A stretch of 64,000 bases of DNA, from the IMG/VR virus record IMGVR_UViG_3300045988_076522; one strand, given 5' to 3'. The position numbers and the translations under genes were made by a program. Below the pieces are notes generated by a model that was given only the letters and a program-made list of their open reading frames with translations, had not been told where the DNA came from and made no database searches. This document shows positions 36,878-52,793 of this stretch, piece after piece. This DNA comes from a virus. The stretch's first letter is position 1. Every line of letters begins with the position of its first letter.

Positions 36878-36896
36878 AAACTCTTATTAGCCAGCG

Positions 36897-36984
36897 CGGA
36901 GAGTGCTGGATTCGAACCAGCGGAACCCTTTTGAGGTTCGGTCCCTTAGCAGGGGACTGGTTTAAGCCACTCACCCAACTCTCC
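36897..36984 (-). tRNA. tRNA-Ser (anticodon GCT), type II
   Basis: GGAGAGT...ACTCTCC. Anticodon stem GTCCC/GGGAC with loop CTGCTAA. Long variable arm. T-arm GCTGGTTCGAATCCAGC. Confidence 0.65.
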
Positions 36985-46462: not shown

Positions 46463-48157
46463 TTAGACCTTCACAGGCTTCTTCTGCACGCTTGCATTCT
46501 TCTTGACAACATCCTTCTCTAGAATCATCATATTAAGCAACTCTTGATTCATAGCATGCTTAAAGATGTCTCTAGTGGTTTTAGGCACCTGGAACCTCTT
46601 CTCTCCAGTAATAAATGAGGATGTTGAATTATTAAGTCCATTTACTAAGAAGCAATTTGACACTCCTGGAACCAAAGCCACATTAGGTCTTCCCTTATAT
46701 GCTAAAGGAACTCTCCAAATGATAACTTTGAATGCTCTTACAAATTCCTTACTGAAATTTGCTTTAAGCAGTCTTTGCTTAAATTCCACGAATGCTTGGT
46801 TGTTCAACTTGGTAAAATATGTATGGTTAGTAATTACCACACAGCCTCTAGGGAACTCTCCTTCATCCACACCATAATCTTCTTTCATTTTACACAGCAT
46901 TTCTGCTATATTAATAATAGAAGGATTCTGGCATAATGCTTCTTCTTTGTCAGATTTCCATTTCTCAATGACATTCTGACCTTTGAACTTACGTAGAACC
47001 ATGTTATCCTCTAACACGGCATAGGAGTTCTTGAATATTGTAGGAAGTAATTCAGAATGATATAAAGCATATGCTTTACCCAAACTGTAAGCAGATGTTT
47101 CGCTATTCTCTATCTCACCATTAGCAGAATGACTTATATCTCTTACTACCAACAACGGAGCTACTCTATTGCGTTTAGCATTATCAACAAATACATTGAA
47201 ACTTGCATTAATAGAAGTTTCCATAAATTCTGGAATCTCTTCGGCAATTTTATCCAATCCGTATGGTTTGAATAGAGTATGTAGAAATCCGCTATTAGAG
47301 GGCTTCTTACGGTTCTTCAACCAGTTCTGATACTTCTCTTTAAGACCTTGATGTTTGAGGAATTTAGAGCCTACTAGCTGTGCCAGCGCCTTTCCAGTAA
47401 CAGTGTCAAAATCGATTTCCAAGAATTTCTTTTGGCTGATTAACTGCTGCCATTGGGCTGCTTTCCCGCTATTCTTCATCTTCCTATATTTACGATAGGT
47501 TGAATAGTCTCCTTCATCCTTAGGTTTACCATAAAGGCCTTCCGCCAAGAATTTGGCTACTGTGTTACGTGCTTTTGCCTCATCTGTCTTACATGCAACA
47601 CTGGAACGAACACGAGGAAGATACTTCTTTACTAAATCACATGTCTGACCGTTGGCAAGACCTGCGAATATGACTTTCTTGAAGAAGTCCCAATCCAATC
47701 TGTGCTTAAAGCCATGGAGTTGAACATCTAAAGCCATCATAGTAATGAAATCTTTCCAGCATCCGGCTGCTGCAAAATAAGCAATGTTGGCATGGAATGT
47801 GGGTTTGTGATAGATTGCCAACCACAACATTCTCATTATACCTTCATTCTTCAAACCTTCTCCTTGCTGTGTATCAAGTTGTATAACTCCTTCCGGGGTA
47901 GTTATTCTACATTTACGAGTTATCATTCTCGTATATGCAGTAAACTTAGTACATAGTAATGGATTAGCTTTCCATAAAGGATACATATCTTTAGCCACTT
48001 GCACGTAGGTACGTGGCTGAAGACATTTCTTAAGATTAACAAACTGGTCTATGAATAACTGATTATTATCCACAAACTTAGGTTTATTCTCATCCCGCCT
48101 TTGACGTGCGGCATTAGGGTAAGGCCTCCTTGGCCTTTGTGCTCCTTTCATTTCCAT
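46463..48157 (-). CDS. Large basic protein with a C-terminal vWA/MIDAS domain (Ro60/TROVE-like or DUF2828-like architecture)
   Basis: 564 aa. Basic N-terminus (RPRRPYPNAARQRRDENKPK). A MIDAS-like DISHS motif follows a hydrophobic strand (PLLVVRDISHSANGE). The helical N-terminal two-thirds plus a C-terminal vWA is the architecture of Ro60/Rsr. Confidence 0.4.
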   Translation of the reverse strand: MEMKGAQRPRRPYPNAARQRRDENKPKFVDNNQLFIDQFVNLKKCLQPRTYVQVAKDMYPLWKANPLLCTKFTAYTRMITRKCRITTPEGVIQLDTQQGEGLKNEGIMRMLWLAIYHKPTFHANIAYFAAAGCWKDFITMMALDVQLHGFKHRLDWDFFKKVIFAGLANGQTCDLVKKYLPRVRSSVACKTDEAKARNTVAKFLAEGLYGKPKDEGDYSTYRKYRKMKNSGKAAQWQQLISQKKFLEIDFDTVTGKALAQLVGSKFLKHQGLKEKYQNWLKNRKKPSNSGFLHTLFKPYGLDKIAEEIPEFMETSINASFNVFVDNAKRNRVAPLLVVRDISHSANGEIENSETSAYSLGKAYALYHSELLPTIFKNSYAVLEDNMVLRKFKGQNVIEKWKSDKEEALCQNPSIINIAEMLCKMKEDYGVDEGEFPRGCVVITNHTYFTKLNNQAFVEFKQRLLKANFSKEFVRAFKVIIWRVPLAYKGRPNVALVPGVSNCFLVNGLNNSTSSFITGEKRFQVPKTTRDIFKHAMNQELLNMMILEKDVVKKNASVQKKPVKV

Positions 48158-48537
48158 CTCTTTGTTTAAATTTATTGTTATGAGAGTCTTTCTTTATTCT
48201 AAACAATAAACAAGCGGCATTACGGCAATCGGACATACGTTAACCCGCTCGCCACTTACAGACCGTAATGCACACTTGACCAGGCAGGAAAGAGGTTTGC
48301 TTGGTGACCTATCTGCATGCTGATTATATAATACAGACCGTGTAGATTCTCTCTTACACAATATCTATAGTAGATTTGCACTACTGTTTTCTGATGCTTA
48401 ATCAGGTGAACTCCTACTGTTCGAATAGATACAGGTTTCAACTCTTTGATATAGCCTTTAAGTCATAGACATACTCCGGAATATGTCTACTGGTTCTTCA
48501 GACCAAGTTTTGCTACCACCATTCGTCAATAGTGGAT

Positions 48538-49233
48538 TTACGGTATTAGATAGTCCACACGAAGGTCTACCGTCTCTTCGTTTGCTTCTAACACCACAGT
48601 CGTCGAAAGAATGTCAGGATTGTCAGCTGTAGTTATCATACTCACAATATCATGTGGGGATTCTAAGTATAAATAACCTCTACCGTCCCAAGCTGGAACA
48701 TATCCACCTCGTAGAATGTTTCGAGACGGAATAGACTTATAATAATAGTGTGCTGGCCGGTAGTGAGCGAATGATACATTAATAGCTGATTGGTGTGTGC
48801 CTATGGTAAAACCACCTAGGACTGTTGCCAGTCTCATCACCTTACTAACATATTTTGAATCGCCTACTACATCTAGTCTTATGTTCAAGCCTGGATAGTA
48901 GAATTTAGCAACTCTCCTGCTTATATCCTTCAACGTTTGAAGAGATTGAAATTCAGCAATGTCAACATAGTTTTTCTCCGATTCAGAACTACCGAAGATA
49001 CAATTGACTGGTATTGGCTGATTAGCTTCAATACATTCTTCCAAAATAGTGATTGCTTCGGACGGAATAGCTTCATTACCAAGTCTGATTCTCTTAGTCC
49101 CATATAAGATATGAGCTATAATCTGACTAAGTGGTAATGATAGTTTCTCCTTAGCAAAGTTGCTTTCCAAATCATATAGATATTGGCAAATGTGTGCACT
49201 GAATGGCGTGTTCCCTTGTACTGTAAACTTCAT
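48538..49233 (-). CDS. Hypothetical protein
   Basis: 231-aa ORF. Confidence 0.5.
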   Translation of the reverse strand: MKFTVQGNTPFSAHICQYLYDLESNFAKEKLSLPLSQIIAHILYGTKRIRLGNEAIPSEAITILEECIEANQPIPVNCIFGSSESEKNYVDIAEFQSLQTLKDISRRVAKFYYPGLNIRLDVVGDSKYVSKVMRLATVLGGFTIGTHQSAINVSFAHYRPAHYYYKSIPSRNILRGGYVPAWDGRGYLYLESPHDIVSMITTADNPDILSTTVVLEANEETVDLRVDYLIP

Positions 49234-50385: not shown

Positions 50386-50412
50386 AAAATTGATATTTAA
50401 ACGTTAATAATA

Positions 50413-50966
50413 GTGGACCTAGGCGGAGTCGAACCGCCGTCCAAACAACCCTCATTAATAAGATTACGTGTGTCTCTATTTTATTACATCAGCTGTTGAG
50501 TTCAGCATGTAGGTAGTTTTACTAGTCTTATCTTGGAACCAGGTAATTAGGCTGCAATAGCCAAACCAGTACACCAAAAGCTAATTTACAAACTACCAAA
50601 CTTAAAGGTTCAGAAGCTGACGCTTCCAAACCTGGGCTGACCGAAGTCGCTCTTCCACCACTCCATTTACGTTGGAGAACGTTTCTATTTGTAACCCATA
50701 GATAGGTAGTGGAGATTTCAGCTTTACTAACCTTTGGCTTTCAAGTTAAGTGGGCTGCTCTATACGCTTCTTCCCACACCTCTTCTGTTTCTAGGTCTCT
50801 CCAATTAACCCGACTTAGAGCTAAATTAATAGATAAGCCAGCAGCTTAGGCTGCCATTCTTACTTCAGTGTTTCCACTTAAATTGCTGTATCATTATTAA
50901 AGAGTTGGTACGAACTCTACACGTCTTACTAACTTGTAATCGCCTGTCAAAACCAAATCTAGGCCC
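50413..50966 (-). ncRNA. ssrA: tmRNA-like gene (ssrA-like), about 550 nt
   Basis: Minus-strand 5' end GGGCCTAGATTTGGTTTTGACAGG matches the tmRNA 5' consensus GGGGCUGAUUCUGGAUUCGACGGG. The 3' end GGACGGCGGTTCGACTCCGCCTAGGTCCA matches GGACGGGGGUUCAAAUCCCCC-acceptor. The 5' and 3' ends pair (GGGCCTA/TAGGTCC). No ORF longer than 60 aa occurs in the 700 bp. A possible tag frame is ...GNTEVRMAA-TAA. Confidence 0.5.
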
Positions 50967-51615: not shown

Positions 51616-52239
51616 TTAACGCTTCACAGCTTCTTCAAAGTTCTTTACAATCTTCTCTGCCTTCTCACGGGAACAGTCAAGCATGTGCATAGTAAGATGA
51701 ATGCGTTGTTCACGCATCAAATCTTCTATGGCTCCTTCATTGCCTTCTTCTCTAGCCTTGAGAGCTTTTAATAGCTCTTCTGGCGTTTCAACACCTTCAA
51801 CATCAGCACCGATAGCCTTAGATATATCCTTCAGAAACTCAAACAAAGCTTTCTTGCCTTCTTCGACTTTAAATGTTGAGCCTTGTCTTTGGTCTCTCAT
51901 TTTCATAAGAATGCCAAAGATTTCACGGGCAGAAGCTTCGTCATCCTCATTCAGAGTGACAGCATGACGTTCATGAGGTTGAACACGAATAGATTCGTCT
52001 TTAACTTCCATAACGAGCAAGTCTTCACCGTCACCACGAACAATGACGATTTCACGGTCTTTCCTTTCGTCATAACCGCCACCAACAGTGAAGTTCTTGT
52101 AAGGAACTTCTTTGCCTTCAGCGGCATCGAGCACATGCCCAAGAATAGTTTCAGCTTCTTCTACGATAGAATCATAGCATGGGTCTTTCTTTGGATTGAA
52201 ATCAATACCAGCTTTCAGGCGTTCTTGTAATTTCTTCAT
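51616..52239 (-). CDS. Hypothetical acidic protein
   Basis: 207-aa ORF. Antisense ORFs at 51701.., 51883.. and 51951.. are artefacts. Confidence 0.5.
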   Translation of the reverse strand: MKKLQERLKAGIDFNPKKDPCYDSIVEEAETILGHVLDAAEGKEVPYKNFTVGGGYDERKDREIVIVRGDGEDLLVMEVKDESIRVQPHERHAVTLNEDDEASAREIFGILMKMRDQRQGSTFKVEEGKKALFEFLKDISKAIGADVEGVETPEELLKALKAREEGNEGAIEDLMREQRIHLTMHMLDCSREKAEKIVKNFEEAVKR

Positions 52240-52441: not shown

Positions 52442-52550
52442 TAATTACTAATATTGGTTAAGAGTGACTCCACCGTGACATGCCAATCACAGTGAAGTTT
52501 CGTCGTAATTTTCAACGACTCATCAGACTCTCTTTTAGACGGAAAGGAGA

Positions 52551-52793
52551 TTATGACATATAATTATCAATAGAATCTCCAGTTGCTGCCCTAATCTGTT
52601 CCCATGGAATGTTCTCTTCTTCGCAAAGCTGTTTGGAGGACTGTATCCACTCCTTGGCGAAGTCTATAAAATCACCGCATTCTCTCTTAGCGATTACTAT
52701 AGCTTCTTTGCAGCTGTAAGCGATGATTCCGGGAAGAAGAGATTTGTCATTGTTAATTGCATGTTTAACTATAGGACTGTTCTTTATATCCAT
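52551..52793 (-). CDS. Hypothetical protein
   Basis: 80-aa ORF. Confidence 0.4.
   Translation of the reverse strand: MDIKNSPIVKHAINNDKSLLPGIIAYSCKEAIVIAKRECGDFIDFAKEWIQSSKQLCEEENIPWEQIRAATGDSIDNYMS

What the first reader, a model, noticed from the sequence alone, without database searches (positions are those of the whole stretch)
46463..48540. vWA/MIDAS protein with Ro60/TROVE-like architecture next to a 380-nt ORF-free segment (candidate Y-RNA-like ncRNA)
The 564-aa protein ends in a vWA fold with a DISHS MIDAS motif after a hydrophobic strand. It has a long helical N-terminal part and a basic N-terminus. Ro60/Rsr proteins have this TROVE-plus-vWA layout. In bacteria and some phages, rsr is adjacent to Y-RNA genes. 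Immediately downstream on the coding strand, at 48160-48537, lies 380 nt without ORFs that contains several imperfect hairpins.
Basis: inference. Interest (0 to 1): 0.55.

Follow-up and report, generated by a model that had tools for sequence, protein, structure and literature searches.

The report
Ro60-fold phage protein behind a hammerhead-like RNA
An uncultivated ~180-kb phage encodes a protein whose predicted shape resembles the RNA-chaperone Ro60, but the structured RNA next to it is not a Y RNA: it is the orphan Rfam motif RAGATH-34, which together with unmodelled downstream sequence has the anatomy of a split, self-cleaving hammerhead ribozyme carrying a tRNA-shaped insert.

Summary
The 564-aa ORF (46463-48157) is real, but it lies on the minus strand. 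The 380-nt gap is therefore upstream of the gene, not downstream.

**RNA.** There is no Y RNA or YrlA match. Rfam RAGATH-34 matches 48535-48428 at 119 bits. Conservation continues to 48300. The whole element has hammerhead topology:
- stem I, with compensatory changes
- CUGANGA core
- a candidate stem II whose loop is pseudoknotted to the 5' flank
- GAAA
- stem III closing a 125-nt insert that holds a tRNA-like cloverleaf
- a GUH triplet

Only N7 and H17 vary, as in true hammerheads. Predicted cleavage is after C48306, 148 nt before the ATG.

**Weak points.**
- Stem II never varies.
- A 30-nt hairpin sits between A9 and G10.1. It is only 2 nt in minimal relatives.
- Nothing has been tested biochemically.

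**RNA-protein link.** Minimal versions of the RNA precede unrelated genes in other phages, and many relatives of the protein lack the RNA. A Ro/Y-type partnership is therefore not supported.

The parts
46463..48157 (-). Gene for a 564-aa protein of the DUF2828/DUF7788 family. Disordered basic N-terminus (residues 1-29), helical domain (about 31-330, with a beta-hairpin at 81-97), and a C-terminal vWA-like domain (335-517) with DISHS.
48300..48535 (-). Whole conserved structured RNA: RAGATH-34 plus an unmodelled 3' extension. Proposed type I hammerhead-like ribozyme.
   Evidence: nhmmer finds both halves in about 50 of 79 related loci, on the same strand and upstream of the gene. RNAalifold and pair counts. 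Hammerhead scan.
48428..48535 (-). Match to Rfam RF03103 RAGATH-34, full length 1-107.
   Evidence: 119.1 bits against gathering score 60.7, E 9.7e-19.
48516..48535 (-). P1 hairpin of RAGATH-34 (CCACUAUU-GACG-AAUGGUGG). It starts 3 nt after the stop codon of the upstream 231-aa ORF.
   Evidence: Rfam alignment; coordinates.
48512..48515 (-). P2 5' strand (UAGC). It pairs with 48452-48455 (GCUA) inside the loop of candidate stem II. In the hammerhead reading this is a pseudoknot between loop II and the 5' flank of stem I.
   Evidence: Rfam consensus pairs. Variants UAGC/GCUA, GCGC/GCGU, ACACG/CGUGU, ACUGG/CCAGU, CCUCG/CGAGG.
48502..48507 (-). Stem I 5' strand (CUUGGU). It pairs with 48300-48305 (ACCAAG).
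   Evidence: 93.9% of cells paired and 4 of 6 pairs with compensatory changes. Own-partner pairing 5.6 of 6 against 3.0 of 6 across lineages.
48495..48501 (-). Hammerhead core C3-A9: CUGAAGA (N7 = A; U or G in relatives).
   Evidence: Invariant except at N7.
48466..48489 (-). P4 hairpin of RAGATH-34. Together with the linker ACCAG (48490-48494) and the single U48465 it forms a 30-nt insertion between A9 and G10.1. The linker can alternatively pair with the stem I 5' strand (Rfam P3: 48502-48505 with 48491-48494).
   Evidence: P4 90.7% paired with 7 of 9 pairs compensatory. P3 90.8% paired with 2 of 4 compensatory. The spacer is 2-3 nt in L065, L145, L168, L204 and L215.
48440..48464 (-). Candidate stem II: GACUU (48460-48464) with GAGUU (48440-48444), plus a 15-nt loop that holds the P2 3' strand.
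   Evidence: 100% pairable but invariant, so no covariation. No covariants found with a pattern that frees the stem.
48437..48439 (-). Hammerhead core G12 A13 A14.
   Evidence: Invariant except for one sequence, L034, which has A13G.
48432..48436 (-). Stem III 5' strand (ACCUG, A15.1 first). It pairs with 48307-48311 (UAGGU, U16.1 last).
   Evidence: 97.8% paired. A15.1-U16.1 and C15.2-G16.2 are kept in 14 of 14 lineages. Compensatory ACUC/GAGU, ACAU/AUGU, ACCUG/CAGGU.
48362..48431 (-). 70-nt tRNA-like cloverleaf inserted in stem III: acceptor 48425-48431 with 48362-48368; D arm 48408-48422; anticodon-like arm 48391-48405; T-like arm 48369-48385 with loop UGCAAAU.
   Evidence: The MFE of the isolated 70-mer is a cloverleaf at -12.8 kcal/mol. 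Paired cells: T arm 95.6% (4 of 5 pairs compensatory), AC 98%, D 91%, acceptor 88%. Not called by ARAGORN or the Rfam tRNA model. Replaced by a short hairpin in L013 and L016.
48340..48359 (-). Hairpin with conserved loop AGAGAGAAUC ((A/U)GAGA(A/G)AAUC in all lineages, including the minimal forms).
48312..48337 (-). Variable hairpin that closes the stem III insert.
   Evidence: 7 of 7 pairs with compensatory changes, 99.2% paired.
48306..48306 (-). H17 (C; A or U in relatives, never G). Predicted self-cleavage is 3' of this base, between 48306 and 48305, 148 nt upstream of the ATG.
   Evidence: Inferred from hammerhead rules; not tested.
48202..48271 (-). Leader hairpin (48263-48271 with 48217-48225) followed by a U-rich tract (48202-48213), lying between the predicted cleavage site and the start codon.
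   Evidence: MFE fold. Conserved with wobble changes in L017-L019. An analogous 12-bp hairpin plus U-rich tract occurs in the 44%-identity clade. Function not tested.

Best explanation
**Components**
The locus is an intercistronic RNA element followed by a gene. Both are real. They are probably linked by shared ancestry (conserved gene order in one phage clade), not as an obligate RNA-protein pair.
- The gene encodes a divergent DUF2828/DUF7788 protein: a helical domain plus a vWA domain whose MIDAS is half degenerate. Its predicted fold is closest to Ro60/Rsr, so it most likely binds structured RNA. This is an inference.
- The leader RNA (48535-48300, minus strand) is Rfam RAGATH-34 plus a 3' extension that the Rfam model lacks.

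**Proposed fold**
Together these fold as a type I hammerhead:
- Stem I joins 48507-48502 to 48305-48300.
- CUGAAGA follows the stem I 5' strand directly.
- GAA-A precedes stem III directly (48436-48432 with 48311-48307).
- A single unpaired C48306 completes a GUC triplet.
- The loop of candidate stem II is pseudoknotted (P2) to the 5' flank of stem I.
- Stem III carries a 125-nt cargo: a tRNA-shaped cloverleaf, a conserved GAGAAUC-loop hairpin and a variable hairpin.

**Proposed mechanism**
- Shown: this anatomy, its conservation and its covariation.
- Inferred, step 1: the RNA is co-transcribed with the upstream 231-aa ORF, whose stop codon lies 3 nt before P1, and with the downstream gene.
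- Inferred, step 2: once the distal strands are transcribed, stems I and III displace the transient local hairpin P3.
- Inferred, step 3: the core cleaves after C48306. The upstream RNA then ends in a highly structured 230-nt tail with a 2',3'-cyclic phosphate. The mRNA of the Ro60-fold protein starts with a 5'-OH followed by a strong hairpin. The two cistrons are thereby uncoupled.
For: **Protein**
-.

**RNA**
- RAGATH-34 matches at 119 bits.
- Conservation runs 125-170 nt beyond the model in about 50 loci.
- RNAalifold itself pairs the distal strands.
- Stem I is 93.9% paired with 4 of 6 pairs compensatory, stem III is 97.8% paired, and all insert hairpins covary.
- Across 14 lineages the only variable core positions are N7 (A/U/G) and H17 (C/A/U, never G). 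A15.1-U16.1 and C15.2-G16.2 are invariant. Stem I strands pair at 5.6 of 6 with their own partner and at 3.0 of 6 across lineages.
- In near-identical genomes (L013, L016) the stem III cargo is swapped, yet the closing helices and H17 persist.
- L065, L145/L209, L204 and L168 have minimal forms with only 2 nt between A9 and G10.1. They show new compensatory variants of stem I, stem III and P2.
- The same scan recovers Rfam-confirmed hammerheads. L059 is a RAGATH-1-hammerhead at 67 bits. The window itself holds a canonical compact hammerhead at 52552-52461. A relative (L045) carries a hatchet ribozyme.
- Pseudoknots between stems I and II occur in about 40% of natural hammerheads, and hammerheads often flank phage genes (PMC3088659).
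Against: - No biochemical test has been done.
- No Rfam hammerhead model hits this region. This is expected given the inserts, but it means there is no independent confirmation.
- Candidate stem II (GACUU/RAGUU, with G10.1-U11.1) never varies, so it has no covariation support.
- A 19-34-nt hairpin, or 2-3 nt in minimal forms, sits between A9 and G10.1. In canonical hammerheads this spot tolerates little. The precedent of single-nucleotide insertions there is recalled from memory only.
- The Rfam hairpin P3, which competes with stem I, also covaries: 90.8% paired, 2 of 4 pairs compensatory.
- The simple scan gives about 1 chance hit per 87 kb, so p is about 0.004 for one 380-nt gap. The case therefore rests on conservation.
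- The sequences come from a few related phage clades.
Confidence: 0.6

Rival explanations
1. The protein is a phage Ro60/Rsr orthologue and the adjacent RNA is its Y-RNA-like partner, a tRNA-mimicking YrlA analogue. The two form an RNP that gates or tethers RNA-decay enzymes.
For: - RNA and gene are on the same strand and adjacent in every locus of this clade.
- The RNA contains a tRNA-like cloverleaf. Bacterial and phage YrlA RNAs lie within 4 kb on the same strand as Ro60 and mimic tRNA (PMC4201824).
- Thermus phage phiLo has two Yrl RNAs upstream of its Ro60 gene (PMC12135203).
Against: - There is no Y_RNA or Yrl match up to E = 10.
- The superficial hY-like 'UGGUCUGA' is CUGACCUGA in most relatives.
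- The GNCGAAN0-1G motif is absent.
- The cloverleaf has the normal tRNA order, not the permuted YrlA order. It is deleted or replaced in L013, L016, L031 and L043.
- Minimal versions of the RNA precede unrelated small ORFs in other phages.
- About 30 related loci keep the protein without the RNA.
- There is no TROVE signal in sequence.
Confidence: 0.15
2. RAGATH-34 folds as drawn in Rfam (P1, P2, P3 hairpin with a CUGANGA loop, P4). It acts as a non-catalytic structured RNA: a cis-regulatory leader, a protein-binding site or a processing signal. The long-range helices merely close a large domain, and the hammerhead-like nucleotides are conserved for another reason.
For: - The Rfam curated structure matches perfectly.
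- P3 covaries.
- Stem II has no covariation.
- There is an unprecedented large insertion at A9/G10.1.
- The flanks of stem II (GACUUAAA, AUAAAUAA, AGUUGAAAC) are conserved in sequence far more strongly than a plain helix needs.
Against: - P3 cannot form in the minimal forms, nor in L029 and L031, yet the core and stems I and III persist.
- The pattern of invariant and variable positions (N7, H17 never G, A15.1-U16.1) is exactly that of hammerheads.
- This reading gives no reason for a single unpaired H to be kept between two long-range helices.
Confidence: 0.2
3. The protein is a generic vWA-containing structural, injection or defence-related phage protein with no RNA role. Its resemblance to Ro60 is only helical repeats plus vWA.
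For: - Foldseek TM to Ro60 is only 0.30.
- Sequence methods see only the vWA core.
- The MIDAS is degenerate in this subclade.
- The DUF2828 literature holds no functional data.
Against: - The gene sits inside a tRNA/tmRNA/ribozyme island, not among virion genes.
- The PHROG category is nucleic-acid metabolism.
Confidence: 0.05

Closest known systems
Hammerhead ribozyme, type I with a stem I / loop II pseudoknot (for example Rfam RAGATH-1-hammerhead RF03152; Perreault et al. 2011, PMC3088659)
   Same: - All core nucleotides are present in the right connectivity: CUGANGA after the stem I 5' strand, GAAA before stem III, A15.1-U16.1, and a GUH triplet before the stem I 3' strand.
- Both ends of the RNA leave through stem I.
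- A pseudoknot links loop II to the flank of stem I.
- The location is intergenic in phages, and canonical copies lie nearby in the same genomes.
   Different: - There are 19-34 nt (a hairpin), or 2-3 nt in minimal forms, between A9 and G10.1.
- Stem II is closed by G-U and is invariant.
- Stem III holds a 65-190-nt cargo, here a tRNA-like cloverleaf.
- A conserved GAGAAAAUC-loop hairpin accompanies the element.
- A competing local hairpin (P3) is present.
- No Rfam hammerhead model detects it.
- Activity is untested.
Rfam RF03103 RAGATH-34 (orphan motif from Weinberg et al. 2017, PMC5737381; no function assigned in any text I could search)
   Same: The window matches the full model at 119 bits. 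Relatives score 70-121 bits.
   Different: - The Rfam model stops at position 107 (window 48428). This is inside what I read as the start of stem III and the cloverleaf acceptor.
- It therefore lacks the 3' strands of stems III and I and the cleavage site.
- It draws the stem I 5' strand as part of a local hairpin.
Ro60/Rsr (TROVE + vWA) with Y RNA / YrlA (PMC4201824; phage phiLo Ro60, PMC12135203)
   Same: - The protein has a helical N-domain plus a C-terminal vWA with DxSxS, and its best structural matches are Ro60 orthologues.
- A structured RNA with a tRNA-like module is encoded just upstream on the same strand.
- It is phage-encoded.
   Different: - There is no TROVE sequence signal.
- The family is DUF2828/DUF7788.
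- The RNA has no Ro-binding helix or CGAA-type motif in the right context.
- The cloverleaf is not permuted.
- RNA and protein occur independently of each other in other phages.
DUF2828 (PF11443) / DUF7788 (PF25043) proteins of phages, giant viruses and eukaryotes
   Same: - 34 of 41 aligned homologues match both Pfam models.
- The best BFVD structural hits are DUF7788/DUF2828 proteins: E 1.6e-29 with TM 0.61 for Myoviridae sp., plus Pithovirus, Marseillevirus, Acinetobacter phage ME3 and CroV.
   Different: - The window protein itself falls below the Pfam threshold (DUF2828 E 0.011).
- It has lost two of the five MIDAS ligands that the family conserves.

Membership tests
Ro60/TROVE | Sequence match to the TROVE domain (PF05731) or to solved Ro60 sequences | tested here: not met
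   - Pfam up to E = 1 gives only a weak DUF2828 hit.
- 0 of 41 family members hit TROVE. 1 of 41 hits vWA_Ro60 weakly, at E 0.0023.
- A profile search of PDB sequences finds no Ro60.
- hhalign against human, Xenopus and Deinococcus Ro60 aligns 55 columns around DxSxS only, at probability 29%.
Ro60/TROVE | Helical-repeat domain capped by a C-terminal vWA domain (doughnut architecture) | tested here: inconclusive
- Foldseek aligns human Ro60 over the full length at E 1e-4, but with TM 0.30.
- Ring closure could not be inspected. Model pTM is 0.54.
Ro60/TROVE | Intact MIDAS in the vWA domain | tested here: inconclusive
   DxSxS is present. The family's Thr and Asp ligands are replaced by Pro and Asn in this subclade but are intact in the wider family.
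Y RNA / YrlA | Match to the Rfam Y_RNA or Yrl covariance models | tested here: not met
   cmscan of 48050-48650 up to E = 10 returns only RAGATH-34 and two chance-level hits.
Y RNA / YrlA | Terminal stem with a Ro-binding bulged helix or GNCGAAN0-1G motif, plus a permuted tRNA-like domain (T, AS, D) | tested here: not met
   - The motif is absent on inspection of the alignments.
- The cloverleaf has the normal tRNA order.
- Criteria are taken from PMC4201824.
DUF2828/DUF7788 | Pfam PF11443 + PF25043 matches | tested here: inconclusive
   - The window protein itself scores E 0.011, 15 bits against a cut-off of 29.
- Its homologues at 40-48% identity carry both domains, as do 34 of 41 alignment members.
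- The best BFVD structural hits belong to this family.
- I read it as a divergent member.
RAGATH-34 (RF03103) | Score above the Rfam gathering threshold over the full model | tested here: met
   119.1 bits against 60.7, model positions 1-107.
Hammerhead ribozyme | Conserved core C3U4G5A6N7G8A9, G12A13A14, A15.1-U16.1, H17 (not G) | tested here: met
   All are present in the window. Across 14 lineages only N7 and H17 vary, within the allowed sets. One sequence (L034) has A13G.
Hammerhead ribozyme | Stems I and III flank the core in the right connectivity and are supported by covariation | tested here: met
Hammerhead ribozyme | Stem II directly adjoins A9 and G12 | tested here: inconclusive
   GACUU/RAGUU abuts G12. 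It is separated from A9 by 2-34 nt and never varies.
Hammerhead ribozyme | Detected by the Rfam hammerhead covariance models | tested here: not met
   No hit at 48300-48535. The models cannot span the inserts. Nearby canonical copies are detected.
Hammerhead ribozyme | Site-specific self-cleavage giving 2',3'-cyclic phosphate and 5'-OH ends | not testable with these tools
   Needs a transcription and cleavage assay.
tRNA | Called by ARAGORN or the Rfam tRNA model; canonical T loop (UUCRANY) and a conserved anticodon loop | tested here: not met
   - Not called by either tool.
- T loops are UGCAAAU, UGCAACU and UUUGAGU.
- The anticodon-like loop varies in length and sequence.
- It resembles a tRNA in its cloverleaf shape only.

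The most novel reading that the evidence does not exclude
RAGATH-34 is a previously unrecognised architectural class of hammerhead. It has a hairpin tolerated between A9 and G10.1, a pseudoknotted loop II, and a cargo bay in stem III. Its job in this reading is to mature a tRNA-shaped RNA with a 2',3'-cyclic-phosphate end. In this phage clade that RNA is the ligand of the adjacent Ro60-fold DUF2828 protein. The result would be a ribozyme-processed, phage-encoded analogue of the Ro-Y RNA particle, giving the first functional handle on the widespread DUF2828 family.
Probability: 0.1. Interest if true: 0.8.

Novelty: new variant of a known kind. Interest (0 to 1): 0.55.

Why it matters
If the hammerhead reading holds, several things follow.
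- An orphan Rfam motif gains a function.
- The known structural tolerance of the hammerhead core widens. It would accept an insertion at A9/G10.1 and a 65-190-nt cargo in stem III, including a tRNA mimic.
- Local motif-finding can evidently truncate split ribozymes.
- Self-cleavage would be placed at a cistron boundary inside the tRNA/tmRNA/ribozyme island of a large group of uncultivated ~180-kb phages.

Separately, the fold-level link between DUF2828/DUF7788 and Ro60 gives a testable RNA-binding hypothesis for a family that is found in phages, giant viruses and eukaryotes and has no functional literature.

Both claims can be tested with a one-day transcription-cleavage assay and a gel-shift.

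Tried and rejected
**Tests of the Y RNA / TROVE idea**
- Rfam Y_RNA/Yrl search of the gap up to E = 10 found nothing.
- I noticed a resemblance of window 'UGGUCUGAAG' to the 5' end of human Y RNAs, recalled from memory. I rejected it because most relatives have CUGACCUGAUGA there.
- I looked for a GNCGAAN0-1G or CGAA-type Ro-binding motif. Only a non-conserved 'UUCGAA' in the D-arm is present.
- TROVE tests by Pfam, by PDB profile search and by hhalign were all negative.
- The 1.84-billion-protein profile search returned only the top 150 strong DUF2828-type hits. The distant tail, where TROVE proteins might appear, could not be examined.

**Alternative stem II assignments**
- I tried P4 as stem II.
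- I tried a helix formed by the nucleotides directly after A9 and directly before G12.
- Both were rejected because they are not conserved across lineages.
- A pattern that frees the stem II bases found no covariants.

**Searches that gave nothing usable**
- The first DNA pattern for RAGATH-34 was too loose and returned mostly chance matches.
- The genome-contig scan gave two chance matches without hammerhead closure.
- GenBank phages hold only one distant homologue, Leptolyngbya phage Lbo-JY46, a hypothetical protein with no upstream gap.
- Neighbouring ORFs have no informative Pfam or PHROG hits.
- The sigma-70 promoter and terminator scan was uninformative.
- The afdb50 library was unavailable.
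- The Weinberg 2017 supplement and the Weinberg 2015 paper are not held. I therefore could not read what the discoverers wrote about RAGATH-34.
- No held paper mentions RAGATH-34.


Full report
**1. Observation**

The ORF 46463..48157 exists, is 564 aa long and begins with a basic stretch. It is on the minus strand. The 380-nt gap 48158-48537 is therefore the 5' leader of the gene, not its downstream flank. The gap begins 3 nt after the stop codon of an upstream 231-aa ORF (48538..49233). The mechanical ORF list shows four small ORFs (40-61 aa) inside the gap. The stretch folds significantly better than shuffles: z = -3.2, with 0 of 100 shuffles as stable.

**2. The protein**

*Sequence evidence*
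- Pfam gives only a sub-threshold DUF2828 hit, at E 0.011.
- PHROGs gives phrog_850, 'RNA-binding protein', at E 1.4e-11 over residues 95-517.
- The protein database holds 601 relatives. Most come from contigs of 175-190 kb. Those at 40-48% identity carry PF11443 (DUF2828) plus PF25043 (DUF7788). 34 of 41 aligned members match both models.
- A profile of this alignment finds no solved Ro60 by sequence.
- I built a Ro60 alignment from human, Xenopus and Deinococcus sequences. My typed human sequence was checked against PDB 9nen and was 537/538 identical. hhalign against this alignment aligns only 55 columns around DxSxS, at 29% probability.

*Structural evidence*
- The AlphaFold2 model has pLDDT 79.7 and pTM 0.54. 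It shows a helical region (31-330) and an alpha/beta vWA-like domain (335-517).
- Foldseek also puts human Ro60 first, at E 1e-4 over the full length, but with TM 0.30.
- Among viral models the best matches are DUF7788/DUF2828 proteins of phages and giant viruses, with E down to 1.6e-29. An annotated 'Ro-like RNA binding protein' reaches only E 0.013.

*Conclusion on the protein*
It is a divergent DUF2828/DUF7788 member with a Ro60-like fold, not a demonstrable TROVE protein. The family conserves all five MIDAS ligands. This subclade keeps DISHS but has Pro for the Thr and Asn for the Asp.

**3. The RNA**

*Rfam matches in the window*
- Rfam at gathering thresholds finds RAGATH-34 at 48535-48428 on the gene's strand, at 119.1 bits against a threshold of 60.7.
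- It also finds 25 tRNAs and a tmRNA in the window. ARAGORN tRNAs.
- A permissive search of the gap gives no Y RNA or Yrl match.

*Distribution in related loci*
- I fetched 79 related loci. RAGATH-34 lies upstream of the gene on the same strand wherever the protein is about 43% identical or more, apart from L044 and L045. A diverged copy occurs in L065, where the protein is 41% identical.
- Conservation continues 125-170 nt beyond the Rfam model.

*Consensus fold*
- RNAalifold on 19 non-redundant sequences pairs the segment just 5' of the invariant CUGAUGA with a segment about 200 nt downstream.
- It also pairs the invariant ACCU that follows GAAA with UAGGU just before that downstream segment.
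- This is hammerhead connectivity: stem I 5' strand, CUGANGA, stem II region, GAAA, stem III 5' strand, insert, stem III 3' strand, one unpaired H, stem I 3' strand.

*Pair counts*

| Helix | Cells paired | Pairs with compensatory changes |
|---|---|---|
| Stem I | 93.9% | 4 of 6 |
| Stem III | 97.8% | 1 of 5 |
| T-like arm | 95.6% | 4 of 5 |
| Variable hairpin | 99.2% | 7 of 7 |

Sliding the partner columns drops overall pairing from 86% to 34-40%.

*Core conservation across 14 lineages*
- N7 is A, U or G.
- H17 is C, A or U, never G.
- A15.1-U16.1 and C15.2-G16.2 are invariant, which gives GUH triplets.
- Every other core base is invariant, except for one A13G singleton.
- Stem I strands pair at 5.6 of 6 with their own partner and at 3.0 of 6 with partners from other lineages.

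**4. Independent support**

- *Cargo swap.* L013 and L016 encode a 99-100% identical protein and have identical flanks. In them the stem III cargo is replaced: the cloverleaf is gone and the two remaining hairpins have new, compensated stems. Stem III (ACCUG/CAGGU), H17 (A) and stem I are nevertheless kept.
- *Minimal forms.* A more specific DNA pattern found minimal versions in unrelated phage contigs: L145/L209, L204 and L168, plus L065.
  - They have only 2 nt between A9 and GACUU, and no P4.
  - They show new compensatory variants: stem I AAACCU/AGGUUU, stem III ACAU/AUGU, and P2 CCUCG/CGAGG or ACUGG/CCAGU.
  - All retain a hairpin with loop (U/A)GAGAAAAUC.
- *Scan validation.* My scan recovers a hammerhead that Rfam confirms: L059, RAGATH-1-hammerhead, 67 bits. 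It also found canonical compact hammerheads in L065 and in the window at 52552-52461. A relative carries a hatchet ribozyme.
- *Precedent.* Pseudoknots between stems I and II, and hammerheads that flank phage genes, are documented (PMC3088659).

**5. Weaknesses**

- The scan's background rate is about 1 hit per 87 kb. The case therefore rests on conservation and covariation within a handful of phage clades.
- Candidate stem II (GACUU/RAGUU) abuts G12 correctly but is invariant.
- A9 is separated from candidate stem II by 19-34 nt in most forms.
- The Rfam hairpin P3 uses the stem I 5' strand and also covaries: 90.8% paired, 2 of 4 pairs compensatory. I read P3 as a transient or competing fold, but that is inference.
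- No Rfam hammerhead model sees the element.
- Catalysis is untested.

**6. The tRNA-like insert**

Window 48431-48362 folds on its own into a cloverleaf as its minimum-energy structure, at -12.8 kcal/mol. All four arms are supported by pairing statistics. It is not a tRNA for four reasons:
- ARAGORN and the Rfam tRNA model do not call it.
- Its T loop is non-canonical.
- Its anticodon-like loop varies freely.
- It resembles none of the window's tRNAs.

It is dispensable in several lineages.

**7. Is the RNA the protein's partner?**

- Every full RAGATH-34 copy found through DNA patterns with enough flank is followed by the gene. All of these belong to one phage clade, so this is conserved gene order rather than independent association.
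- The minimal forms precede unrelated ORFs of 82, 99 and 247 aa.
- About 30 loci with more distant relatives of the protein show tRNAs, short gaps or other sequence upstream, and no such RNA.
- The only GenBank phage homologue has no upstream gap.

A Ro-Y-type partnership is therefore not supported, though it is not excluded for this clade.

**8. Mechanism proposed**

Shown: the anatomy described above. The following steps are inferred.
- P1 abuts the upstream stop codon, so the element is probably intercistronic.
- Cleavage after C48306 would leave the upstream RNA with a compact 230-nt structured tail ending in a 2',3'-cyclic phosphate.
- It would leave the downstream mRNA with a 5'-OH followed by a strong hairpin (48271-48217) and a U-rich tract.
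- The fates of the two cistrons would thereby be uncoupled.
- The Ro60-fold protein sits in an island of tRNAs, tmRNA and ribozymes, and plausibly handles structured RNAs.

**9. Verdict**

The fold is Ro60-like, TROVE membership is unproven, a structured RNA is present, and it is not a Y RNA.
- The most informative result is the reinterpretation of RAGATH-34 as the 5' two-thirds of a split hammerhead-like element. I found no mention of RAGATH-34 in the searchable literature. I could not read the discoverers' supplement.

Noticed in passing
window 52461-52552 (minus strand): A canonical compact type I hammerhead lies between ORFs 52551-52793 and 51616-52239. Its parts are stem I GAGAGU/ACUCUU, CUGAUGA, stem II GUCGU/ACGAC, GAAA, a 12-bp stem III and GUC|A. 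Rfam sees it only below gathering: RAGATH-1-hammerhead 24 bits at E 0.039, and Hammerhead_3 22.5 bits.
   Followed up: partly
window 17991-51605: ARAGORN tRNA genes, 28 of them on the minus strand and interspersed with small ORFs. One is a tRNA with anticodon CUA (amber-suppressor type) at 44072-44144. There are also overlapping opposite-strand calls at 36881-36957 (+) and 36896-36984 (-).
   Followed up: no
window 50411-50966 (minus strand): Rfam calls a tmRNA at 83.7 bits. It spans 556 nt for a 374-position model, so it carries large insertions. ARAGORN did not report it. tmRNAs sit about 2 kb upstream of the gene in most related loci.
   Followed up: no
window 48202-48271 (minus strand): A strong hairpin (48271-48263 with 48225-48217) plus a U-rich tract lies between the predicted cleavage site and the start codon. 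The 44%-identity clade has a different 12-bp hairpin plus U-rich tract at the same place. It could be a terminator of the upstream unit or a protective 5' hairpin of the mRNA.
   Followed up: partly
L013 1286-1624 and L016 3660-4003: These genomes are near-identical to the window, but the stem III cargo is swapped. The tRNA-like cloverleaf is replaced by a short hairpin and the other hairpins have re-compensated stems. The flanks are identical. This suggests cassette-like exchange inside the ribozyme.
   Followed up: yes
L065 3570-3640 and 3731-3854: Two hammerhead-type elements lie in tandem upstream of the DUF2828 gene. One is canonical and compact. The other is a RAGATH-34-like minimal form with core CUGAGGA, a 2-nt spacer and H17 = U.
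   Followed up: yes
L045 781-928; L059 934-1002; L052 2090-2127; L057 1550-1587 and 2362-2572; L050 9152-9472: Related phages carry other structured RNAs in the same tRNA island: a hatchet ribozyme (91.5 bits), a RAGATH-1-hammerhead (67.4 bits), abiF RNAs, a group I intron and a permuted tmRNA.
   Followed up: no
window 46463-48157, residues 412 and 444: In this subclade (63% identity or more) the family's MIDAS Thr and Asp are replaced by Pro and Asn, while DxSxS is kept. The metal site may be lost or altered.
   Followed up: partly
window 48340-48359 and equivalents in L065, L145, L168, L204: A hairpin with loop (A/U)GAGA(A/G)AAUC is conserved in every lineage of the element, including the minimal ones. 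No role is assigned. It could be a tertiary-contact or protein-binding site.
   Followed up: no
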